IMG/VR virus record: IMGVR_UViG_3300029745_000045
Direction: 5' to 3' (one strand)
Source of the DNA: a virus
Lineage: Duplodnaviria; Heunggongvirae; Uroviricota; Caudoviricetes
Length of the DNA: 17,317 nucleotides
Shown here piece after piece: positions 132 through 16,306 of this stretch (position 1 is its first letter; every line of letters starts with the position of its first letter). The position numbers and the translations under genes are program-made. The notes below the pieces were generated by a model. That model was not told where the DNA came from. It saw nothing but the letters and a program-made list of their open reading frames with translations, and did not search any database.

Positions 132-206
132 CGGTGAGTCAGGGTCATCAGTAAAGAGCTGGTGGCCCTTTTGTTGTTGTGAGCTTCCGAGTACGGGAGA
201 CGGGGT

Positions 207-422
207 ATGTACCAGATGGAAAAAATCACAACAGGTGTGTCATACACCACGTCAGCGGTGGGAACGGGCTACTGGTTCCTGCAGTTGCTGGACAGGGTTT
301 CCCCGTCTCAGTGGGCGGCAATAGGCGTGCTGGGGAGTCTGCTGTTTGGGCTGCTGACATATCTGACTAACCTGTATTTCAAAATCAGAGAGGACCGGCG
401 TAAGGCGGCGCGGGGAGAATGA
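207..422 (+). CDS. S: Class II holin (phage 21 S-like pinholin), 71 aa with possible second start at Met4 (68 aa)
   Basis: Two hydrophobic segments ([18 protein letters not shown] and [18 protein letters not shown]) and a charged C-terminus [13 protein letters not shown]; close resemblance to recalled phage 21 S sequence; M-Y-Q-M dual-start arrangement; GGAG-type RBS upstream; immediately precedes the endolysin. Confidence 0.8.
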
Positions 423-426
423 ACTG

Positions 427-960
427 GTGAGCAGAAAACTCCGCTATGGTTTATCGGCTGCCGTTCTGGCGCTGATTGCCGCTGGCGCTTCTGCGCCTGA
501 CATTCTCGACCAGTTTCTGGATGAAAAAGAAGGCAACCACACCACAGCATACCGTGATGGTGCGGGTATCTGGACCATCTGCCGTGGAGCCACCCGGGTG
601 GATGGTAAGCCTGTTATTCCTGGCATGAAGCTGTCGAAGGAAAAATGCGACCGGGTTAATGCCATTGAGCGTGATAAGGCGCTGGCATGGGTGGAGAAAA
701 ACATCCGGGTGCCACTGACCGAACCCCAGAAAGCGGGGATCGCGTCATTCTGTCCGTACAACATTGGCCCCGGTAAGTGTTTCCCGTCGACGTTTTATAA
801 ACGAATTAATGCTGGTGATCGCAGGGGAGCATGTGAGGCGATTCGCTGGTGGATTAAGGACGGTGGCAGGGACTGCCGTATTCGCTCAAATAACTGTTAC
901 GGTCAGGTATCCCGGCGAGACCAGGAGAGCGCGCTGGCGTGCTGGGGAATCGACAGATAA
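427..960 (+). CDS. R: SAR endolysin (T4-lysozyme-like muramidase, phage 21 R-like)
   Basis: GTG start 4 nt after the holin stop. N-terminal Gly/Ala-rich weakly hydrophobic segment (YGLSAAVLALIAAGASA) typical of a signal-anchor-release domain, followed by the E-x8-D-x5-T catalytic spacing (EGNHTTAYRDGAGIWT). Confidence 0.85.
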   Translation: MSRKLRYGLSAAVLALIAAGASAPDILDQFLDEKEGNHTTAYRDGAGIWTICRGATRVDGKPVIPGMKLSKEKCDRVNAIERDKALAWVEKNIRVPLTEPQKAGIASFCPYNIGPGKCFPSTFYKRINAGDRRGACEAIRWWIKDGGRDCRIRSNNCYGQVSRRDQESALACWGIDR

Positions 961-1067
961 GCAGAATATTTTGCTGAAAAATGACGTTGGCCAACGCGGG
1001 CGGATAACACGAAATCCTGCGAGCTGGCAAAATGTAAGTGAATAAAGTCAGGAACATTATTTCACGC

Positions 1068-1100
1068 AGAGGCACCGTAATGGTGCCTTTGTCATTTCTG
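1068..1100 (+). terminator. Candidate intrinsic terminator downstream of the endolysin
   Basis: Hairpin aggcacc-gtaat-ggtgcct (1070-1088) followed by the T-rich run TTGTCATTTCTG. The T tract is interrupted, so it is probably weak. Confidence 0.4.
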
Positions 1101-1151
1101 CGCTTCGCACAAGCGTAAATAAACCAAAGAACCTTTCAGGATGAGCCCTGG

Positions 1152-1199
1152 TGGATAACCGGCAGTGGTCTGGTTAACCCTCTTTGGGCTGGTTATTCC
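1152..1199. promoter_or_regulatory. Three direct repeats TGG(A/T)TAACC-like at 19-bp spacing upstream of the antirepressor gene
   Basis: TGGATAACC at 1152, TGGTTAACC at 1171 and TGGTTATTCC at 1190, read directly from the sequence, 35-80 bp upstream of the ATG at 1234. Confidence 0.3.
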
Positions 1200-1233
1200 T
1201 GTGCGCAGGGTTCATCACTAAAAGGAATCAACC

Positions 1234-1929
1234 ATGAAAGAGATGATTTCTGTCGATCATGAAATATCCATGAGTAGTCTGGATTTTCTGAATAACATTA
1301 TTAATCCAGCCCGGGCAGAAGCCGGAGAAGTCCCTCATGAACCGCGTAAGTTTCTTGCAAAAATTGAGGATGAGCTAGAGCTTGATGGAACCGGAAAAAA
1401 ATTCCGGTTAAACAATAACCAGACAAGAACGGCATACTATGATCTGGATTTTGACCAGATGATGCTCGTTGGCATGAGGGAGTCAAAGGCCGTTCGTCGT
1501 TCTGTGCTGGCAAGACTCAAAGCGATGCATGGTATTCAGATCCCCCGGACTTTACCTGAGGCGTTGCGATTTGCGGCAAAACTGGCTGAACAGAAAGCAG
1601 TGCTGGAAAATCAACTGGCAATAGCAGCGCCGAAGGCTGAATTTGTTGATAACTATGTTGAAGCATCTGGTCTGATGGGATTCCGGGAAGTTGCTAAGTT
1701 ACTCGGTATCAAAGAAACCGATTTCCGGCTGTTTTTGTTGGAGAACGGAATAATGTATCGCCTCGCTGGAAAAATGACGCCTTACTCGCATCACCTGGAT
1801 GCGGGGCGGTTTAGCGTGAAAACGGGCGAGGCGGGCAATGGTCATGCTTTTACGCAGGTTAAATTCACCCCAAAAGGTGTTGAGTGGATTGCTGGTCTGC
1901 TTGCTGCATGGAGAGCTACCGCAGCATGA
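1234..1929 (+). CDS. Phage antirepressor / regulatory protein (Rha-like N-terminal region, KilA-C/ANT-like C-terminal domain)
   Basis: 231-aa ORF with an AAGGA RBS. The C-terminal half (…AEFVDNYVEASGLMGFREVAKLLGIKETDFRLFLLENGIMYRL…FTQVKFTPKGVEWIAGLL) matches the recalled ANT/KilA-C pattern. Assignment from memory of domain signatures. Confidence 0.65.
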   Translation: MKEMISVDHEISMSSLDFLNNIINPARAEAGEVPHEPRKFLAKIEDELELDGTGKKFRLNNNQTRTAYYDLDFDQMMLVGMRESKAVRRSVLARLKAMHGIQIPRTLPEALRFAAKLAEQKAVLENQLAIAAPKAEFVDNYVEASGLMGFREVAKLLGIKETDFRLFLLENGIMYRLAGKMTPYSHHLDAGRFSVKTGEAGNGHAFTQVKFTPKGVEWIAGLLAAWRATAA

Positions 1930-2021
1930 AGATGATAAAAATGGACTGGAAATTTTTGCTGGTCTGGCTGATTCCGTTTTTATGGGTGGTTGCCCAGTTA
2001 ATTACTGCTATCAAGGGGTAA
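1926..2021 (+). CDS. Small single-pass membrane protein, 31 aa (MKMIKMDWKFLLVWLIPFLWVVAQLITAIKG)
   Basis: ATG overlaps the antirepressor TGA (gcATGAag). One hydrophobic helix flanked by Lys residues. Below the ORF-track size cutoff; found by manual translation. Confidence 0.4.
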   Translation: MKMIKMDWKFLLVWLIPFLWVVAQLITAIKG

Positions 2022-2023
2022 AG

Positions 2024-2155
2024 ATGTCAGACAAACTCATAACGCCGGCAAAGGTCCTGTGTGTGATTGTCGGTATTTCATTTTCACTAATGCTGGTTGC
2101 TCTTTTTCTGTCCCTCGCCTGGGTGATGTTGTCTTCGTCGGGGCTGCTGGGGTGA
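2024..2155 (+). CDS. Small single-pass membrane protein, 43 aa (MSDKLITPAKVLCVIVGISFSLMLVALFLSLAWVMLSSSGLLG)
   Basis: ATG at 2024 preceded by AAGGGG (2013-2018); starts 2 nt after the previous small ORF stop; strongly hydrophobic core. C-terminal part of the 1838..2155 track ORF. Confidence 0.45.
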   Translation: MSDKLITPAKVLCVIVGISFSLMLVALFLSLAWVMLSSSGLLG

Positions 2156-2274
2156 CAGTGACTGATGACATCAGCAGAGCGCTGGCTTTTGCTATTAAGT
2201 GGGTGGCTGTTGGTATTGCTGTGTCTCCGATGCTGTATGGGCTGGCAAAACTGGTCATTGCGCTGAAATCGTGA
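2152..2274 (+). CDS. Small membrane protein, ~40 aa (…TVTDDISRALAFAIKWVAVGIAVSPMLYGLAKLVIALKS), putative GTG start
   Basis: GTG at 2152 overlaps the preceding TGA (gGTGA). Hydrophobic core resembles the next small ORF (RALAFAIKWVAVGIAV vs [16 protein letters not shown]). Start codon uncertain. Confidence 0.35.
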   Translation: MTVTDDISRALAFAIKWVAVGIAVSPMLYGLAKLVIALKS

Positions 2275-2285
2275 ACTTTAAAAAG

Positions 2286-2372
2286 ATGAGTGCTGAACTT
2301 ATTCGGGCAATGGCATTTGCCATTCGTATTGTGGCCATTGCTGTTCTGGTCTGGGCAATTCGTTGGTGGTGA
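2286..2372 (+). CDS. Small membrane peptide, 28 aa ([28 protein letters not shown])
   Basis: ATG at 2286; its TGA (2370-2372) sits 1 nt before the Rz ATG at 2374. Hydrophobic and similar to the preceding small ORF. Below the ORF-track cutoff. Confidence 0.35.
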
Positions 2373-2373
2373 T

Positions 2374-2868
2374 ATGAACCGTGTTCTGTGTGTGGTGATT
2401 ATTGTCATGCTGGTAGCCTGTGGTGTGCTTAGTCTGGGGCTGAATCATTACCGTGATAACGCCATAACCTACAAAGAGCAGCGCGATAAAAAAGTCAGTG
2501 AGCTGGAGCAGGCAAATGCAACCATTACTGATATGCAGCAGCGCCAGCGTGATGTTGCTGCACTTGATGCCAGATACTCGAGGGAATTAGCCGATGCGAG
2601 AGCTGAAAATGAAACTCTGCGCGCTGACGTTGCCGCTGGTCGTAAGCGCCTGCGGGTCAACGCCACCTGCCCCGGTACCGTGCGTGAAGCCACCGGCACC
2701 TCCGGCGTGGATAATGCAACCGGCCCCCGACTGGCAGACACCGCTGAACGGGATTATTTCACTCTCAGAGAGCGGTTGATGCTGATGCAGAAGCAGCTGG
2801 AAGGGGCGCAGGAATATATCCGCACTCAGTGCACTAAGCTGGCTTTTTATTATCCGGAGGATATATGA
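2374..2868 (+). CDS. Rz: Rz i-spanin (inner-membrane spanin subunit)
   Basis: Internal ATG of the 2290..2868 track ORF. N-terminal TM segment then …[16 protein letters not shown]…[45 protein letters not shown]…[37 protein letters not shown], closely matching recalled lambda Rz. Confidence 0.85.
2594..2779 (+). CDS. Rz1: Rz1 o-spanin (outer-membrane lipoprotein) embedded in the +1 frame of Rz
   Basis: Entirely inside Rz in another frame. Lipobox VSAC, then Pro-rich …[27 protein letters not shown], matching recalled lambda Rz1. True start may be the internal Met at 2609. Confidence 0.8.
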
Positions 2869-3089
2869 AGAAATTACGGGTAACCGTAGAACCTTTTCAG
2901 GGAACAATTCCGTTCCGTATTTTGCAGCGTGGTCGTGTTCTTGTTGAAGGTTCGTTCAGTGGTAAATGTACGCAATTACACTCCCGGACCTTTCAGGTGA
3001 ATGCCACGAATGAAGAGCTAACCGTTGAGTGTACGATGAATACCGCTAAATGCCGCATGGTATCCGCTGCATTACAGCGAGTGTGTTGA
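2865..3089 (+). CDS. Hypothetical protein, 74 aa, translationally coupled to Rz
   Basis: ATG overlaps the Rz stop (ATGA) with a GGAGG RBS. No recognised family, no lipobox, no TM segment. Confidence 0.45.
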
Positions 3090-3529: not shown

Positions 3530-3895
3530 ATGGCTGAGCTTCGTACACTCCAGAGCAGAATCAAAACACTGAATACCCGACGGGTGAATATTCTGAAGGG
3601 TGAACAGCGTCGTGTCAGTGGCAGTGCACGTGTTTCCCTCAAGCGTCATATCTGGCTCAGGGACGCCGGGCAGTGCTGTATCTGTGGTCGTGTGGTTGAC
3701 CTCTGTGACAGTGAACTTGATCACCGAATTGCACTTCAGTTCGGTGGTGGTAATGAGGAGACGAATCTCTGGACGCTCTGTACCGAATGCCATCGACAAA
3801 AGTCTGCTCGTGAAGCGGCGGGTGGTATGCCGGACCCGACGCTGCCGGAGGTGTCCGGAGGTAGTGGCAGAGCGGACGACATCATCGGACTGTAA
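3530..3895 (+). CDS. HNH endonuclease (phage packaging-associated)
   Basis: Cys-rich HNH motif (CCICG…ELDHRIALQFGG…NLWTLCTECHRQK) and position just upstream of the terminase genes, as in HK97-like cos phages. Confidence 0.85.
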   Translation: MAELRTLQSRIKTLNTRRVNILKGEQRRVSGSARVSLKRHIWLRDAGQCCICGRVVDLCDSELDHRIALQFGGGNEETNLWTLCTECHRQKSAREAAGGMPDPTLPEVSGGSGRADDIIGL

Positions 3896-3986
3896 CCCGA
3901 CCCGGGGGGGGATCATCCGGCGTAAAAAACGATCGCTTTGGACACCGCGCCCCCTCTCACGCAGAGAAAAAATTCCCGTTTCAGGG

Positions 3987-4114
3987 CAGTTAACATGTTA
4001 ACTGGCTGCCCGGGCATTTTTGCGGTTTTTATCTTTATTATTCAGTTTGTTGTGCGGAAAAAATGTTAACTGGCTTTTTCAGCAAATGTTAACCAGGCAG
4101 CAGTTAACATTTGC
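3987..4114. repeat. Cluster of GTTAAC-centred palindromes and direct repeats; candidate cos / terminase recognition region
   Basis: Perfect 18-bp palindrome cagttaacatgttaactg (3987-4004); direct repeat ATGTTAACTGGCT at 3996 and 4063; 12-bp inverted arms gcaaatgttaac / gttaacatttgc (4082-4114). A-tract-rich DNA between them. Confidence 0.5.
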
Positions 4115-4184
4115 GGCATGAGACGCCGGGAAAAATGGGCTGAACCATACCCGGCTGAGTGCGTTCTGGACCCGGGAGGAGGCT

Positions 4185-4748
4185 GTGCTGACAACGCAAA
4201 AACGAAAATTTGCGCTGGCGCTCATGTCCGGGAAAAACAAAACAGCGTCAGCCATTGCCGCCGGTTATTCGGCGAAGACCGCCAGGGTTAAAGGCTCGCA
4301 GCTGGCAAAAGATCCGGAGGTGCTTGCGTTTATAGCCCGTAAACAATGCGAGACGGTGGAGGTGGATGAGGTTCCTGTTTACCGGCAGAAAAAATCAGAG
4401 CAGGAGGATAAACCCCGTCGCCGTGAGGCGGCTGCAATACCACAGCCGGACGAAAACAATCCGGAGATGCCACCGTCCGCGGTGATGTCTCCTGGTATTG
4501 AATATATGGAGGATGGTCTTCCCGATCCGGTGAAAGCCATGGGGCGGATCCTGGTGGAAAACCTCTGCATTGATCCGAAACTGGCACTGGATGCGGCCTG
4601 GCGTCTGGCGCAGTTCACGCACCATAAAAAAGGGGATACCGGGAAAAAATCGGCAAAAGGTGATGCCGCGAAAAAAGCGGCTAACCGTTTTGCGGTGCCA
4701 CCGCCACCCAGACTGGTGGTGAATAACGATAATGAGGGCAACGGATGA
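4185..4748 (+). CDS. terS: Terminase small subunit
   Basis: GTG start with GGGAGGAGG RBS. N-terminal HTH-like motif (KTASAIAAGYSAKTARVKGSQLAKDPEVLAFI) typical of phage small terminase subunits. Stop overlaps the large-subunit start (ATGA). Confidence 0.8.
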   Translation: MLTTQKRKFALALMSGKNKTASAIAAGYSAKTARVKGSQLAKDPEVLAFIARKQCETVEVDEVPVYRQKKSEQEDKPRRREAAAIPQPDENNPEMPPSAVMSPGIEYMEDGLPDPVKAMGRILVENLCIDPKLALDAAWRLAQFTHHKKGDTGKKSAKGDAAKKAANRFAVPPPPRLVVNNDNEGNG

Positions 4749-6406
4749 TACCTGTATGGAGCACAGCCTGCCCGGACTGGGCAGAGCGCCTGAAAAAGGG
4801 GCTGTCGATTATTCCGGATCCGATTTATCCGGACGAGGCCGCACATGCCCTGGCGATTTTTAAACAACTGCGGATTGTGGATGCACCTGGTAGCCCTACG
4901 TTCGGGGAGTCCTGTGCACCGTGGGTGTTTGACCTGGTGGCGGCCCTGTTTGGCTCCTACGATGCGCAGACCGGTGTACGCCATATCAAGGAAGTTTTTA
5001 TCCTTATCCCCAAGAAAAACTCGAAGTCCACGCTGGCCGCGGGGATCATGATGACGGCGCTGTTACTGAACTGGCGGCAGGCGGCGGGTTACACGATTCT
5101 GGCCCCGACTGTGGAGGTGGCGGCCAACGCCTTCAACCCTGCCCGGGATATGGTACGACGTGACGATGATCTGGATGACCTCTGCCAGGTACAGACCCAT
5201 ATCCGGACCATCACCCACAGGGTGACAGACACCACCCTGAAGGTGGTGGCAGCCGATCCGAATACGGTGTCCGGTATCAAGTCCGTGGGTACGCTGATTG
5301 ATGAGTTGTGGCTGTTTGGCAAGCAGTGCAAGGCGGAGGACATGTTACGTGAAGCCATAGGCGGCCTTGCCTCCCGCCCGGAAGGGTTTGTGGTGTATAC
5401 GACCACCCAGTCGAATGAACCGCCCGCCGGGGTGTTCAGACAGAAACTGCAGTACGCCCGGGATGTGCGCGACGGCAAAATTCATGATCCGCACTTTCTG
5501 CCGGTGATATTTGAACACCCTCCTGAAATGGTGGAAAGCGGGGCTCACCTGCTGATGGAAAACCTCGCCATGGTCAATCCGAATCTCGGCTATTCAGTGG
5601 ATGAGGCCTTTCTGTACCGGGAGTACCGTAAAGCCCGGGAAGCCGGTGAAGAGACATTCCGGGGGTTCATGTCAAAACACGCCAATGTGGAAATTGGTCT
5701 TGCCCTGCGCTCTGACCGCTGGGCGGGGGCTGATTTCTGGGAAGAGCAGGGCCGTTGTATCAGCCTGGACGATATCCTGCGTCGTGCTGATGTGGTGACG
5801 GTGGGGATTGACGGCGGAGGGCTGGATGATCTGCTGGGGATGTATGTGATTGGGCGTGACCGGGAGACCCGCGAATGGCTGGGCTGGGGCCATGCCTGGG
5901 CGCATGAAACCGCGGTGGTCCGACGGAAGAGCGAGGCGTCCCGGTTTCAGGATCTTGTTGCCTGTGGAGATATGACCATTGTCCGGCGTGTCGGGGATGA
6001 CACGGCGGAAGTGGCGGAATATGTGCGTCGCATTCATGAGGCTGAGTTACTGGAGCATATCGGTATTGACCCGTCAGGGGTGGGGCAGATTCTGGATTCA
6101 CTGGCGGAAGCCGGGATCCCCGACGGAATTGTGGTGGGGATAAGCCAGGGCTGGAAACTGGGCGGGGCCATTAAAACCACCGAGCGCAAACTGGCTGAAG
6201 GGGTGCTGGTGCATGGTGACCAGCCCCTGATGGCCTGGTGTGTCGGCAATGCCCGGGTGGAGCCTAAAGGTAACGCCATTCTTATCACCAAACAGGCCAG
6301 TGGACGGGGAAAAATTGACCCGCTGATGGCGCTGTTCAATGCGGTCTCCCTGATGTCCCTTAACCCGGAACCGAAAAAGAAAGAATATGCGGTTTTTTTC
6401 ATATAA
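4745..6406 (+). CDS. terL: Terminase large subunit
   Basis: 553-aa ORF coupled to terS, size and position typical of a large terminase subunit. Family-level call from memory, not a search. Confidence 0.85.
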   Translation: MIPVWSTACPDWAERLKKGLSIIPDPIYPDEAAHALAIFKQLRIVDAPGSPTFGESCAPWVFDLVAALFGSYDAQTGVRHIKEVFILIPKKNSKSTLAAGIMMTALLLNWRQAAGYTILAPTVEVAANAFNPARDMVRRDDDLDDLCQVQTHIRTITHRVTDTTLKVVAADPNTVSGIKSVGTLIDELWLFGKQCKAEDMLREAIGGLASRPEGFVVYTTTQSNEPPAGVFRQKLQYARDVRDGKIHDPHFLPVIFEHPPEMVESGAHLLMENLAMVNPNLGYSVDEAFLYREYRKAREAGEETFRGFMSKHANVEIGLALRSDRWAGADFWEEQGRCISLDDILRRADVVTVGIDGGGLDDLLGMYVIGRDRETREWLGWGHAWAHETAVVRRKSEASRFQDLVACGDMTIVRRVGDDTAEVAEYVRRIHEAELLEHIGIDPSGVGQILDSLAEAGIPDGIVVGISQGWKLGGAIKTTERKLAEGVLVHGDQPLMAWCVGNARVEPKGNAILITKQASGRGKIDPLMALFNAVSLMSLNPEPKKKEYAVFFI

Positions 6407-6469
6407 CCCTGTTCACACTGTAACCATCACGAACTGCTCCGGCGGTTTTTTTATTTTCAGGAGGCTGAT

Positions 6470-14194: not shown

Positions 14195-16306
14195 ATGGCG
14201 ACGTTACGTGAACTGATTATCAAAATTTCGGCAAATTCGCAGTCATTCCAGTCGGAGATCCAGCGGGCTTCCCGCATGGGCAGTGAATATTACCGGACCC
14301 TGCAGAATGGCGGGCGTCAGGCTGCCGCAGTCGCCCGGGAGCAGCGACGCGCCCTGGCTGAGCTGAACAGCCAGTTGACGGAAATCCGCGCTTCAGCTGC
14401 CGGAACGGCGGGGGCATTTGCAGGTGCCTTTGCCACCGGACACCTGATTTCTCTGGCCGATGAATGGAGTTCCGTGAATGCCCGACTGAAACAGGCGTCG
14501 CAGTCATCCGATGAATTTTCGTCATCACAGAAAGTGCTGATGGATATCAGCCAGCGGACGGGCACGGCATTTTCAGATAATGCGGCCCTGTTTGCCCGCT
14601 CGGCAGCCTCAATGCGTGAATATGGTTACAGTGCTGATGATGTGCTGAAGGTGACGGAGGCCATTTCCACGGGGCTGAAAATCTCCGGTGCCAGTACGGC
14701 AGAGGCGGGCTCGGTGATCACCCAGTTCAGCCAGGCGCTGGCACAGGGTGTGTTACGCGGTGAGGAATTTAATTCGGTCAATGAAAGCGGAGACCGGATC
14801 GTACGTGCACTGGCTGCGGGTATGGGCGTGGCCCGTAAAGACCTTAAGGCGATGGCGGACGACGGCAAACTGACGGCGGATAAAGTCGTTCCTGCGTTAA
14901 TCAGCCAGCTGGGGGTATTGCGTGATGAATATGCCGCCATGCCGGAAACGGTCTCTGACGGGATCACAAAGGTGGAAAACGCCTTTATGGCCTGGGTGGG
15001 TGGCGCGAATGAAGCCAGCGGAGCGACGAAAACGCTCTCCGGCGTGCTGAACGGTGTTGCCGGTAATATTGATAATGTGGCAACAGCCGCGGGGGCGCTG
15101 GTTGCCGTCGGGGTTGCCCGGTACTTTGGCAATATGGCCTCCGGAGCGGTGTCTGCCACGGCAGGACTTGTGACGGCAGCACGTAATGAAGTGGCACTGG
15201 CGGAAGCACAGCTCAGGGGGACGCAGATTGCCACGGCGCGGGCAAGGGCAGCCGTGTACCGTGCACAGCAGGCTGTGGCGGCAGCCCGCGGGACGGAGAT
15301 GCAGATTGCTGCAGAAGCCCGTCTGGCGGCCACACAGGAACGCCTGAACAGAAATATTGCTGCCAGAACCGCAGCCCAGAATGCGCTGAACAGTACAACG
15401 GCGGTGGGCTCACGTCTGATGACTGGTGCGTTGGGACTGGTTGGTGGCGTACCCGGACTGGTGATGCTGGGGGCAGCAGCATGGTATACGCTGTACCAGA
15501 ATCAGGAGCAGGCCAGGGAGTCAGCGCACCAGTATGCACTGACGATAGATGAAATCGCGCATAAAACGCCGTCAATGTCTTTGCCTGAAGCCTCAGATAA
15601 TGAAGGACGAACACGGGCGGCGCTGGCAGAGCAGAACCGGCTGATTGATGAACAGGCCAGCCGGGTGAAATCCCTGCAGGAAAAAATCGCTGGATATCAG
15701 TATGTTCTGGCTAACCCTGGCTGGACAACCGGTGACGGATTCATGATAAACCATCTGACATCGGTGAAGACCGTAACGGAAGGGCTTTCTCAGGCAACAG
15801 AGCAGCTTGCCGTTGAGCAGTCCCGTCTGGCACAGATGCAGGAAAAAGCGCAGTCCATTCACGAACCACTGGGTGAGGGAACGGTTATCCATATTGTGCC
15901 GCGACTGGCCGGAGCCGGAAAGGGCGGACTACAGATTGTGCTGGGGGCAGCTGCCATTGTGGGGGCTTTCTTCACGGCCGGAGCATCAATGGCGTTATGG
16001 GGTTCAGCCCTGGCAGCCGGTGGTTTTTCTGCCACCACGATGCTGTTTTCACTGGGTGCCAGCATGATACTGGGCGGTGTGGCCCAGATGCTGGCCCCGA
16101 AGGCAAAAACACCGGATTACCGCGCAACGGATAACGGCAGACAGAACACGTATTTTTCCTCACTGGACAACATGATTGCCCAGGGCAACCCGATGCCGGT
16201 GCCCTACGGTGAAATGCTGGTTGGTTCACGACGTATCTCTCAGGACATCAGCACCCGTGATGAAGGCGGAGACGGAAAGGTGGTGGTTATTGGTCGACAG
16301 GGATAA
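14195..16306 (+). CDS. Tape measure protein N-terminal portion fused in frame to a lambda gpI-like tail-assembly C-terminus (chimeric, probably a deletion product)
   Basis: Residues ~1-550 fit a tape-measure core pattern (…SGASTAEAGSVITQFSQALAQGVLRGEEFNSVNESGDRIVRALAAGMGV…). Residues ~552-703 (QSIHEPLGEGTVIHIVPRLAGAGKGGLQIVLGAAAIVGAFFTAG…NTYFSSLDNMIAQGNPMPVPYGEMLVGSRRISQDIS…) match recalled lambda gpI C-terminus. At 703 aa it is short for a tape measure. Confidence 0.75.
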   Translation: MATLRELIIKISANSQSFQSEIQRASRMGSEYYRTLQNGGRQAAAVAREQRRALAELNSQLTEIRASAAGTAGAFAGAFATGHLISLADEWSSVNARLKQASQSSDEFSSSQKVLMDISQRTGTAFSDNAALFARSAASMREYGYSADDVLKVTEAISTGLKISGASTAEAGSVITQFSQALAQGVLRGEEFNSVNESGDRIVRALAAGMGVARKDLKAMADDGKLTADKVVPALISQLGVLRDEYAAMPETVSDGITKVENAFMAWVGGANEASGATKTLSGVLNGVAGNIDNVATAAGALVAVGVARYFGNMASGAVSATAGLVTAARNEVALAEAQLRGTQIATARARAAVYRAQQAVAAARGTEMQIAAEARLAATQERLNRNIAARTAAQNALNSTTAVGSRLMTGALGLVGGVPGLVMLGAAAWYTLYQNQEQARESAHQYALTIDEIAHKTPSMSLPEASDNEGRTRAALAEQNRLIDEQASRVKSLQEKIAGYQYVLANPGWTTGDGFMINHLTSVKTVTEGLSQATEQLAVEQSRLAQMQEKAQSIHEPLGEGTVIHIVPRLAGAGKGGLQIVLGAAAIVGAFFTAGASMALWGSALAAGGFSATTMLFSLGASMILGGVAQMLAPKAKTPDYRATDNGRQNTYFSSLDNMIAQGNPMPVPYGEMLVGSRRISQDISTRDEGGDGKVVVIGRQG

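What the first reader, a model, noticed from the sequence alone, without database searches (positions are those of the whole stretch)
1926..2372. Four tandem, translationally coupled micro-ORFs encoding single-helix membrane peptides inside the lysis cassette
Between the antirepressor and Rz lie four consecutive ORFs of 28-43 codons, each encoding one hydrophobic helix, each starting at or within a few nt of the previous stop (ATGA and GTGA overlaps), the last ending 1 nt before the Rz start. The third and fourth are paralogous. Placement between endolysin and spanin genes suggests roles in lysis timing (antiholin-like), membrane-acting toxicity or superinfection exclusion. Two are below the ORF-track cutoff and would be missed by standard gene callers.
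Basis: partly seen in the sequence, partly recalled or inferred. Interest (0 to 1): 0.65.

Follow-up and report, generated by a model that had tools for sequence, protein, structure and literature searches.

The report
Small membrane-peptide genes between endolysin and spanin
The four tiny ORFs are real, conserved phage genes for single-helix membrane peptides from three shuffling families. They are already catalogued as hypothetical proteins, are common in E. coli prophages, and have no known function.

Summary
Four hydrophobic ORFs tile window 1926-2372 between the KilAC antirepressor and Rz, with stops and starts 0-12 nt apart. No dinucleotide shuffle in 3000 gave a chain of even three such ORFs.

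They are genes, not noise. Substitutions favour the annotated frames (pN/pS: o3 0.13, o4 0.39, o2 0.52). All four exact peptides are already in public protein sets, PGAP annotates three, and PHROGs lists all as unknown function. A family B (o2) homologue has weak published ribosome-profiling support.

They belong to three families:
- **A:** o1.
- **B:** o2.
- **C:** o3 and o4.

These recombine as modules in the endolysin-Rz gap: 9 architectures in 82 loci, always at least one peptide gene. In this window o1, o3 and o4 lack the N-terminal parts of longer native forms (45-60 aa).

Families A and C also occur in other lysis-cassette types and in tail modules, from Escherichia to Pseudomonas phages. 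There they sit behind a conserved terminator-like hairpin.

Function is unproven. My best guess is late-expressed, non-essential inner-membrane modulators of lysis. Position alone does not show this, because the gap is also an insertion hotspot for an antirepressor and a methylase. The claim that standard gene callers would miss them is wrong.

The parts
207..422 (+). Class II (phage 21 S-type) holin, 71 aa, with two start methionines (M1 and M4)
   Evidence: Pfam PF04971, E 9e-33. RefSeq names it 'class II holin family protein'.
427..960 (+). Lysozyme R, 177 aa, with a weakly hydrophobic N-terminal segment of the signal-arrest-release (SAR) type
   Evidence: Pfam PF00959, E 2e-24. N-terminal sequence read. 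Stx-phage endolysins are classed as SAR type in PMC8136144.
1070..1088 (+). Stem-loop AGGCACC-GTAAT-GGTGCCT followed by TTGTCATTT. It lies near the left edge of the inserted antirepressor module (about 1047-1944).
   Evidence: Read directly from the sequence. The module edges come from where array loci without ant stop matching: query position 46 = window 1945, and from comparing the gaps.
1234..1929 (+). KilAC-domain antirepressor, 231 aa
   Evidence: Pfam PF03374, E 5e-28. RefSeq annotation.
1926..2021 (+). o1, 31 aa, family A. Only the WKF motif plus the transmembrane part is kept. The native N-terminal 19 residues (MIDFSKLIRELRLMISQLPN) are replaced by MKMIKMD at the ant junction. The start overlaps the ant stop (ATGA).
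   Evidence: The exact peptide is on 115 contigs, named 'prophage/membrane protein'. phrog_6632, E 1.6e-4.
2024..2155 (+). o2, 43 aa, family B, full length. AAGGGG Shine-Dalgarno-like motif 4 nt upstream. Predicted N-in, one transmembrane helix at residues 11-31.
   Evidence: phrog_4906, E 4.5e-21. RefSeq WP_001280935.1. 103 relatives, all from E. coli. pN/pS 0.52 in frame against 0.81 and 1.26 in the other frames. The Sakai homologue XECs191 has a RIBOseq signal.
2152..2274 (+). o3, family C with the long tail. 40 aa from GTG 2152 (GTGA overlap with the o2 stop) or 38 aa from GTG 2158. It lacks the 10-22 N-terminal residues of native 48-60 aa forms.
   Evidence: phrog_1115, E 3e-24. pN/pS 0.13; variable sites by codon position 8/4/24. 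Native forms. PGAP models 51 aa from CTG 2119.
2271..2372 (+). o4, family C with the short tail ending IRWW. 28 aa from ATG 2286 (more likely) or 33 aa from GTG 2271. The stop lies 1 nt before the Rz start.
   Evidence: phrog_4493, E 4.4e-7. WP_032140280.1. The alignment with o3 puts o4 M6 opposite o3 M1. pN/pS 0.39.
2374..2868 (+). Rz i-spanin, 164 aa
   Evidence: Pfam PF03245, E 5.5e-50.
2594..2779 (+). Rz1 o-spanin lipoprotein, embedded in the +1 frame of Rz (lipobox LVVSAC)
   Evidence: ORF and translation. Same arrangement as the annotated rzoD in K-12 and Rz1 in Sakai.

Best explanation
The four ORFs are real genes for single-pass inner-membrane peptides. They come from three small phage protein families: A (o1), B (o2) and C (o3, o4).

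The array is a recombination mosaic. Peptide-gene modules are gained, lost and reordered in the gap between the SAR-type endolysin R and the i-spanin Rz of lambdoid (Stx-phage-like) prophages. In this window a roughly 900-bp antirepressor module was inserted into the family A gene. o3 and o4 are head-truncated family C copies.

No promoter-like site is found in front of them, so they are most likely made only from the Q-antiterminated late transcript. Translation would start at the Shine-Dalgarno-like motifs of o2 and o3, and by termination-reinitiation at the ATGA and GTGA junctions running from ant through to Rz.

Inferred function: non-essential accessory peptides that enter the cytoplasmic membrane together with holin, SAR endolysin and spanin, and tune late envelope events such as lysis timing or efficiency. 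Their target would be generic (membrane energetics or a host inner-membrane component) rather than a specific holin allele.

My confidence in the separate steps:
- Coding and membrane nature: about 0.9 for o2 and o3, 0.75 for o4, 0.6 for o1.
- Late-transcript expression: about 0.7.
- A lysis-tuning role: about 0.35.
For: **Anatomy and chance:**

**Frame-specific purifying selection:**. o1 differs from its ant-free allele by 6 synonymous and 3 non-synonymous codons (my count from the sequences).

**Conservation:** in array loci the ORF block has 7 variable sites in about 470 nt. The non-coding 155 nt upstream has 22.

**Spread:** part of the region is in 1746 of 5426 complete E. coli genomes, and the near-full array is in 581.

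**Modularity:** 82 of 82 R-Rz gaps hold at least one family member, in 9 architectures that include reversed order (C3-B).

**Translation signals:** o2 has a strong AGGGAGG site where it follows the long family C gene. Its stop overlaps the Rz start in L107.

**Already called as genes:**

**Ribosome footprints:** the Sakai family B homologue has RPKM 12.6 and RCV 0.43 in LB (PMC5597208).

**Viable phage:** the same cassette is in the complete phage PhiR5_1, whose record names E. coli C as host.

**Other lysis cassettes:** family A lies between endolysin and spanin in an unrelated GH19-endolysin cassette of Enterobacter. Family C lies there in an HP1-type-holin cassette of Salmonella.

**No independent expression signals:** no + strand promoter-like site and no Rfam hit in the window.
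Against: - No experiment links any of these peptides to lysis.
- K-12 DLP12 and Qin have the same holin/lysozyme/Rz layout with R and Rz overlapping and no peptide gene. From my own knowledge, phage 21 lyses without them.
- Families A and C also occur between tail genes (I and J, or baseplate genes) in Citrobacter, Salmonella and Pseudomonas phages. That argues against a role tied to the lysis cassette, although in lambdoid phages the tail genes share the late transcript.
- The same gap carries obviously unrelated cargo: two antirepressor types and a DNA methyltransferase.
- o1, o3 and o4 have lost conserved N-terminal residues, so they may be inactive.
- A few loci carry broken copies: L044, L046 and L071 for family B, L076 for o3, L053 and L059 for family A.
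- o2 evolves fast (pN/pS 0.52).
Confidence: 0.5

Rival explanations
1. Accessory cargo unrelated to lysis (morons, i.e. extra genes inserted into a phage operon). The peptides would be mobile mini-genes that land at permissive junctions of late operons. They would act on the host envelope for another purpose, such as blocking DNA entry by superinfecting phages or some other defence or fitness effect.
For: - Presence/absence and order polymorphism between conserved R and Rz.
- Lower GC (0.44-0.49) than the flanking lysis genes (0.52-0.58).
- Families A and C also sit in tail modules, there with a downstream terminator-like hairpin as in classic morons.
- They share the gap with an antirepressor and a methylase.
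- o2 has a rapidly diversifying C-terminal half.
- Precedent, from my own knowledge: the HK97 gp15 moron encodes an inner-membrane exclusion protein.
Against: - No promoter-like site in front of the genes in the window or in most related loci.
- A terminator-like hairpin lies upstream, so expression in an uninduced lysogen is not expected.
- No match to PADLOC defence models.
- In the lysis context there is no downstream terminator, and the last ORF abuts Rz.
Confidence: 0.25
2. Mostly recombination scars. Only o2, and the full-length family A or C genes found elsewhere, would be functional. The head-truncated o1, o3 and o4 in this window would be leftovers of module exchange that stay open because they are short, young and hitch-hike with the cassette.
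For: - o1 lacks 7 of the 11 invariant family A positions, including the conserved DFSKLIRE..R.M head.
- o3 and o4 lack the N-terminal parts present in native family C genes.
- The o3 and o4 start codons are non-canonical or ambiguous, with weak ribosome-binding sites.
- Within-array diversity is too low to measure selection on the truncated copies themselves.
- Window versus O157 o1: 1 synonymous against 2 non-synonymous codon changes.
Against: - The truncated o3-o4 pair is kept intact in the commonest architecture: 27 of 82 loci, and 581 genomes with the near-full array.
- Six different nucleotide alleles encode the identical 38-aa o3 peptide.
- A 38-aa family C form with the same start position exists independently (P0210).
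- The same o2-stop/GTG junction also heads a different family C gene in L029.
Confidence: 0.2
3. Type I toxin-like peptides. They would be small hydrophobic membrane toxins whose synthesis is held down by an antisense RNA.
For: - Size, single hydrophobic helix and tandem paralogues resemble Hok, Ldr, Ibs and TisB-type toxins (my own knowledge).
- In long family C genes elsewhere, a minus-strand promoter-like site (TTGTCA or TAGTCA, 18 nt, TATACT) faces the bidirectional hairpin. It would give an RNA of about 70 nt antisense to the ribosome-binding site.
Against: - Nothing of the sort is in this window: no promoter-like site on either strand in 1900-2400 and no Rfam family.
- The ORFs sit in an operon with coupled starts, not as autonomous units with long 5' leaders.
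- Family A loci lack the antisense promoter-like site.
- The hexamers overlap conserved codons (KYKR, LTM), so they may be coincidental.
Confidence: 0.07
4. Coupling ORFs. What would matter is that ribosomes translate across the gap and are delivered to the Rz start, not the peptides themselves.
For: - The last ORF always ends 1-10 nt before, or overlaps, the Rz start.
- Where there is no gap, R itself overlaps Rz.
Against: - Amino-acid-level conservation: o3 pN/pS is 0.13. Family A is 50% identical between E. coli and Pseudomonas phages.
- The same families sit in front of unrelated genes (J, baseplate genes), and in Enterobacter 20 nt from the spanin gene, which has its own ribosome-binding site.
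Confidence: 0.06
5. Chance ORFs, or fragments of one larger frameshifted membrane-protein gene.
For: Four abutting ORFs of any kind arise in about 4% of shuffles. A 123-aa ORF on the minus strand (2037-2408) also covers the region.
Against: - Hydrophobic four-ORF chains never arose in 3000 shuffles.
- The substitution pattern is frame-specific.
- Each module occurs alone with its own start.
- No homologue longer than 86 aa was found among 5.8 billion clusters and 1.84 billion representatives.
- The minus-strand ORF is not annotated and cannot persist across the different module orders.
Confidence: 0.02

Closest known systems
PHROG families phrog_6632 (o1), phrog_4906 (o2) and phrog_1115/3246/4493 (o3, o4); RefSeq hypothetical proteins WP_001280935.1, WP_042004856.1 and WP_032140280.1; Sakai ECs_5707 / XECs191
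   Same: Direct sequence membership. The position between endolysin or antirepressor and Rz in E. coli prophages and Stx phages, including H-19B, is the same.
   Different: None of these entries carries a function. The four-gene array with the ant insertion is one of at least nine arrangements.
Phage P2 LysA (own knowledge: Ziermann et al. 1994, J Bacteriol)
   Same: A non-essential membrane protein gene placed between the endolysin gene (K) and the spanin genes (lysB/lysC), reported to affect lysis timing.
   Different: LysA is much larger and has several membrane spans. No sequence relation was detected; the peptides have no Pfam hit.
Phage Mu gp25 'releasin' (DUF2730), PMC9239132
   Same: A single-pass membrane protein encoded a few genes downstream of a SAR endolysin. 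It assists SAR endolysin release.
   Different: gp25 is 99 aa with a 73-aa acidic cytoplasmic domain and is required for lysis. The peptides here are 28-43 aa with almost no soluble part and do not match DUF2730. Family A also accompanies a non-SAR GH19 endolysin.
Antiholins (lambda S107, S21-71, T4 RI, P1 LydB; own knowledge)
   Same: Small membrane proteins in or near lysis cassettes that set lysis timing.
   Different: Known antiholins are either alternative products of the holin gene or specific holin binders. These peptides show no similarity to the S21-type holin and occur next to three unrelated holin types.
HK97 gp15-type morons encoding inner-membrane exclusion proteins (own knowledge: Cumby et al. 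2012)
   Same: A small inner-membrane protein gene inserted between late (tail) genes, present or absent among relatives. Tail-module copies of families A and C look like this.
   Different: Morons carry their own promoter and are expressed from the prophage. No promoter-like site was found here. There is no sequence similarity.
Type I toxins (Hok, Ldr, Ibs, TisB, ZorO; own knowledge)
   Same: Hydrophobic single-helix peptides under 60 aa, sometimes in tandem paralogous copies, often in prophages.
   Different: The window has no autonomous promoter, long leader or antisense RNA gene, and the organisation is operonic.

Membership tests
PHROG phrog_4906 (o2, family B) | Significant match to the family profile over the whole peptide | tested here: met
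   E 4.5e-21, residues 1-43. 103 relatives at E<=0.01, all from E. coli.
PHROG phrog_1115/3246/4493 (o3 and o4, family C) | Significant match to the family profiles; shared core xRAxAFAI(K/R) | tested here: met
   o3 E 3e-24, 7e-19 and 1.5e-16. o4 E 4.4e-7 and 7e-5. The core is invariant in alignment A4.
Family A (phrog_6632; 45-aa proteins such as the unannotated ORF between R and Rz of H-19B) | WKF motif followed by one transmembrane helix and a basic C-terminal end | tested here: met
   o1 keeps W8 K9 F10 and the helix. o1-type peptides are retrieved by the family profile, e.g. P0274 at E 1.6e-9.
Family A (phrog_6632; 45-aa proteins such as the unannotated ORF between R and Rz of H-19B) | Conserved N-terminal head M-x-D-F-S-K-L-I-R-E-x-R-x-M...L | tested here: not met
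   In o1 the head is replaced by MKMIKMD at the ant junction. o1 is a truncated derivative, not a typical member.
Antiholin | Product of the holin gene itself or sequence-related to the cognate holin | tested here: not met
   The peptides have no Pfam holin match. The holin gene is separate and of the PF04971 type.
Antiholin | Binds the holin and delays triggering | not testable with these tools
   Needs lysis curves and interaction assays.
Releasin (Mu gp25, DUF2730) | DUF2730 domain: an N-terminal transmembrane helix plus a cytoplasmic domain of about 70 aa | tested here: not met
   No Pfam hit at E<=1. The peptides are 28-43 aa. The gp25 description is from PMC9239132.
Type I toxin-antitoxin | Small hydrophobic membrane peptide | tested here: met
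Type I toxin-antitoxin | Own promoter and a cis- or trans-encoded antisense RNA | tested here: not met
   There is no promoter-like site in 1900-2400 on either strand and no Rfam family. Only long family C genes in other loci show a minus-strand promoter-like site.
Moron (accessory gene inserted in a late operon) | Present or absent between conserved neighbouring genes, with deviating base composition | tested here: met
   Nine architectures between conserved R and Rz. GC 0.44-0.49 against 0.52-0.58.
Moron (accessory gene inserted in a late operon) | Own promoter upstream and terminator downstream, with expression from the prophage | tested here: not met
   The window has no + strand promoter-like site and no downstream terminator, because o4 abuts Rz. 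Tail-module copies do have a downstream terminator-like hairpin. This is a consensus scan only, so weak promoters are not excluded.

The most novel reading that the evidence does not exclude
The micro-ORFs may be the visible tip of an unrecognised class of phage mini-gene cassette: a conserved terminator-like hairpin, a short leader, and a GTG- or TTG-start gene for a 45-60 aa single-pass membrane protein with exchangeable heads and tails. The cassette moves between endolysin-spanin junctions and tail-tip junctions in phages from Escherichia to Pseudomonas. It would encode a new kind of late-acting membrane effector. That could be a general lysis-clock or anti-superinfection peptide or, for family C, a toxin controlled by an antisense RNA that ends at the same bidirectional hairpin.
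Probability: 0.2. Interest if true: 0.7.

Novelty: new member of a known kind. Interest (0 to 1): 0.42.

Why it matters
About a third of complete E. coli genomes match part of this region. Carriers of these peptide families include Stx phages such as H-19B and Sakai Sp5. The genes sit inside the cassette that releases phage and Shiga toxin, yet none has a known function.

If they tune lysis timing or efficiency, they would affect toxin and phage release. If they act on host membranes for exclusion or as toxins, they would add to the small-membrane-protein repertoire of prophages.

The module shuffling also gives a clean natural series of one to four peptide genes, with full-length and truncated forms, for genetic tests.

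Tried and rejected
- **Locus fetching by peptide:** I fetched loci through Rz instead.
- **Literature:** full-text searches for accession numbers, locus tags and peptide strings found nothing. Two Stx-phage genomics papers do not mention the ORFs. One call failed on a two-letter term (17).
- **Family libraries:** Pfam, NCBIfam and PADLOC gave no family for any peptide. Rfam gave no RNA family.
- **K-12 prophages:** Qin and DLP12 lack the genes, so none of the characterised K-12 small proteins there (YnfR, YnfS, YnfQ, YnfU) corresponds to them.
- **A versus C superfamily:** the profile-profile comparison of families A and C was not significant (probability 6.5%). I do not claim a superfamily, only shared short C-terminal tails.
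- **ORF tiling alone:** a weak statistic (about 4% of shuffles). I replaced it with the hydrophobic-chain test.
- **Selection on the truncated copies:** could not be measured, because there were only 7 variable sites.
- **Other family members in the Sakai RIBOseq supplement:** none found, but the stored files are cut.
- **Structure prediction:** not run. A 30-40 aa helix would not discriminate between the hypotheses.
Full report
**Context**

The window is the late region of a lambdoid E. coli prophage. The stretch 1900-2400 is 100% identical in E. coli 2018-166 (NZ_CP075632) and in phage PhiR5_1.

Gene order:
- an S21-type class II holin (207-422);
- a lysozyme with a SAR-like N-terminus (427-960);
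- a KilAC antirepressor (1234-1929);
- the four micro-ORFs;
- Rz (2374-2868) with embedded Rz1 (2594-2779);
- a 74-aa ORF, a YlcI/YnfO-family gene, an HNH endonuclease, terminase and an HK97-like head and tail module.

**Observation**

- o1: 1926-2021, with an ATGA overlap onto the ant stop.
- o2: 2024-2155.
- o3: from GTG 2152 (GTGA overlap) or GTG 2158, to 2274.
- o4: from GTG 2271 (GTGA overlap) or ATG 2286, to 2372.
- Rz: ATG at 2374.

Each peptide has one hydrophobic 19-residue window with mean Kyte-Doolittle 1.9-2.9. Four abutting ORFs of any sort arise in about 4% of dinucleotide shuffles. Chains of hydrophobic ORFs of at least 28 aa never exceeded two in 3000 shuffles. The region is T-rich (AT skew -0.33 to -0.36), as expected for hydrophobic coding.

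**They are genes**

Across alleles from 90-odd related loci, substitutions are frame-specific:

| ORF | pN/pS, annotated frame | pN/pS, other + frames |
|---|---|---|
| o3 | 0.13 | 1.26, 4.72 |
| o4 | 0.39 | 0.79, 1.36 |
| o2 | 0.52 | 0.81, 1.26 |

For o3, variable sites by codon position are 8/4/24.

- Six distinct nucleotide alleles encode the identical 38-aa o3.
- o1 and its ant-free allele differ by six synonymous and three non-synonymous codons (sequences).
- In array-type loci the ORF block has 7 variable sites in about 470 nt. The 155 nt of upstream non-coding DNA has 22.
- PGAP annotates o2, o3 (as 51 aa from a CTG) and o4 (28 aa). The PhiR5_1 record annotates o1-o3. All four exact peptides are in public protein sets, on 115 to about 1000 contigs.
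- PHROGs holds all of them as families of unknown function. Pfam, NCBIfam and PADLOC have nothing.
- The family B homologue of O157 Sakai (ECs_5707 in Sp5; XECs191 at another prophage) was reported among RIBOseq-supported novel small genes. In LB its translatome RPKM was 12.6, RCV 0.43 and coverage 0.55, and it was predicted to be inner-membrane (PMC5597208 supplements).

So the claim that gene callers would miss them does not hold.

**Three families, shuffled as modules**

I fetched 80 IMG/VR loci through Rz, plus annotated records, giving 82 endolysin-Rz gaps. Every gap contains at least one small hydrophobic ORF.

| Loci | Architecture |
|---|---|
| 27 | A-B-C3-C4 |
| 24 | A alone |
| 12 | C4 alone |
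| 9 | C3-B (reverse order) |
| 3 | ant1-A-B-C3-C4 (this window and its twins) |
| 2 | ant2-B (Stx phages) |
| 2 | ant2-B-C4-DNA methyltransferase |
| 2 | C3-C4 |
| 1 | ant1-A-B (O157) |

A few copies are broken (L044, L046, L071, L076, L053, L059).

- **Family B (o2)** is confined to E. coli and always lies in this gap. Sometimes its stop overlaps the Rz start.
- **Family C (o3, o4)** also occurs in E. marmotae and Salmonella. Native forms are 48-60 aa, such as (M/V)RKYKRILLRLTMKNGLELKAPVTDD... or MKGIEVETPASLDL.... The window's o3 and o4 lack these heads. o3 and o4 share the core RAxAFAI(K/R) and differ in their tails. Natural hybrids exist.
- **Family A (o1)** is natively 44-45 aa. It has a conserved head (M-x-D-F-S-K-L-I-R-E-x-R-x-M), a WKF motif, one helix and an IRWW or AIKG end. 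It is found in Escherichia, Salmonella, Enterobacter, Citrobacter, Klebsiella, Providencia and Pseudomonas phages, including the classic Stx1 phage H-19B, where it is unannotated.

In this window an antirepressor module of about 900 bp (about 1047-1944, lower GC) replaced the hairpin, leader and first 19 codons of family A. What is left is a 31-aa ORF that starts on the ant stop codon.

**Contexts beyond this cassette**

- Family C lies between an HP1-type holin, a SAR lysozyme and Rz in Salmonella.
- Family A lies between a non-SAR GH19 endolysin and a different i-/o-spanin pair in Enterobacter.
- Both families also lie in tail modules. Family C sits between I and J in S. salamae. Family A sits before J in Citrobacter, among baseplate genes in Salmonella phage SEN34, and after the minor tail genes in Pseudomonas phage YMC11/02/R656.
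- In all these native contexts a GC-rich, terminator-like stem-loop sits 35-60 nt upstream of a GTG, TTG or ATG start. RNAalifold finds 13 pairs, 5 of them with compensatory changes.
- Tail-module copies also have a downstream terminator-like hairpin.
- Consensus scans found essentially no promoter in front of the genes.

**How it most likely works**

Shown:
- the genes are real and conserved;
- they encode single hydrophobic helices;
- the junctions permit termination-reinitiation;
- o2 has Shine-Dalgarno-like motifs;
- no independent promoter-like site or RNA family is present.

Inferred: they are expressed from the Q-antiterminated late transcript together with holin, endolysin and spanins, and they insert into the inner membrane.

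The positive-inside rule suggests N-in for o1 and o2 and N-out for o3. This is a crude reading.

For function I commit to non-essential late-acting membrane modulators of lysis, at about 0.35. This rests on recurrent placement between endolysin and spanin in three unrelated cassette types and on co-expression with lysis genes.

Four things count against it. R and Rz abut in K-12 prophages with no peptide gene. Families A and C occur in tail modules. The gap carries unrelated cargo. Three of the four ORFs here are truncated.

Because the partner holin, endolysin and spanin differ between contexts, any target is more likely generic or host-encoded than a specific lysis protein.

Rivals:
- unrelated accessory cargo such as exclusion factors (0.25);
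- recombination scars for o1, o3 and o4 (0.2);
- type I toxin-like peptides (0.07);
- pure coupling ORFs (0.06);
- chance ORFs or a broken larger gene (0.02).

**Comparison with known systems**

By sequence, the ORFs are members of uncharacterised PHROG and RefSeq hypothetical families. By position they resemble P2 LysA, and more loosely the Mu releasin. They fail the defining features of releasin (DUF2730) and of antiholins related to their holin. They have the peptide properties of type I toxins but lack the promoter and antisense RNA in this window. They show moron-like polymorphism and composition but lack the promoter and terminator frame here.

**Verdict**

This is a real, widespread and already catalogued set of small phage membrane-protein genes of unknown function. 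The specific four-gene array is one mosaic arrangement among many.

It is moderately interesting. The reasons are the location in Stx-type lysis cassettes, the prevalence (matches in 1746 of 5426 E. coli genomes) and the hairpin-linked cassette behaviour across genera. There is no evidence yet for a new mechanism.

Noticed in passing
Related loci: L003 1880-1945, L030 1341-1412, L098 2437-2503, L100 207-271, L101 2428-2503, L103 2424-2497, L102 2420-2500, L090 2910-3003, L094 1383-1437: A terminator-like GC stem-loop (AAAACCCCG-loop-CGGGGTTTT plus a T-run, readable on both strands) lies 35-60 nt upstream of native family A and family C genes in lysis cassettes and tail modules, from E. coli to Pseudomonas phages. 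Five of 13 pairs show compensatory changes. Its role (terminator, mRNA end-protector or recombination boundary) is unknown.
   Followed up: partly
L094 1447-1476 (- strand), L090 3008-3037 (- strand); also long family C genes of E. coli in the alignment: A minus-strand promoter-like site (TTGTCA, TAGTCA or TGGACA, 18 nt, TATACT) sits inside the 5' part of long family C genes and points at the bidirectional hairpin. It would make an RNA of about 70 nt antisense to the ribosome-binding site. It could be coincidental, because it overlaps conserved codons.
   Followed up: no
window 1047-1944: The antirepressor module appears to be an insertion that replaced the hairpin, leader and first 19 codons of the family A gene. 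It has lower GC (0.44-0.49) than the holin/lysozyme and Rz genes (0.52-0.58) and its own upstream stem-loop at 1070-1088.
   Followed up: partly
L029 and L033, gap positions about 1113-1880: In two loci a 255-aa DNA methyltransferase-like gene (DPPY motif) sits in the same endolysin-Rz gap after ant2, a family B gene and a family C gene. This shows the gap is a general insertion hotspot.
   Followed up: no
L053 and L059: These family A copies have an in-frame stop in the conserved head (REI*) and also carry a degraded upstream hairpin, as if gene and hairpin decay together.
   Followed up: no
Proteins P0351 and P0355 versus family C: Some distant family A members end in ...FGLAKLL or ...FGLARVL, like the ...YGLAKLVIALKS tail of o3. 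The IRWW tail is shared by family A and o4. Heads and tails seem exchangeable, although the profile comparison of A with C was not significant.
   Followed up: partly
L102 2498-2787 (Pseudomonas phage YMC11/02/R656): The family A-like gp058 is followed 26 nt later by another 38-aa single-helix ORF (gp057). Tandem micro-ORFs of this kind therefore recur outside E. coli.
   Followed up: no
window 2865-3089: A 74-aa ORF starts on the Rz stop (ATGA). It is annotated as hypothetical (WP_062890963.1) and matches part of phrog_2571 (unknown function, E 3e-28), aligning to positions 100-171 of a 291-position profile.
   Followed up: no
window 2119-2274: RefSeq/PGAP models o3 as 51 aa starting at a CTG codon and overlapping o2 by 37 nt. 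The extension is not conserved where family C genes sit in other contexts, so the start is probably mis-set.
   Followed up: partly
window 141-169: A strong terminator-like hairpin (12 pairs plus a T-run) lies just upstream of the holin gene.
   Followed up: no
window 3530-16306: An HK97-type morphogenesis module: HNH endonuclease next to the small and large terminase genes, a 645-aa ORF combining a prohead protease domain and a capsid domain, portal, a tail tube protein with an Ig-like domain, and an HK97-type tape measure protein.
   Followed up: no
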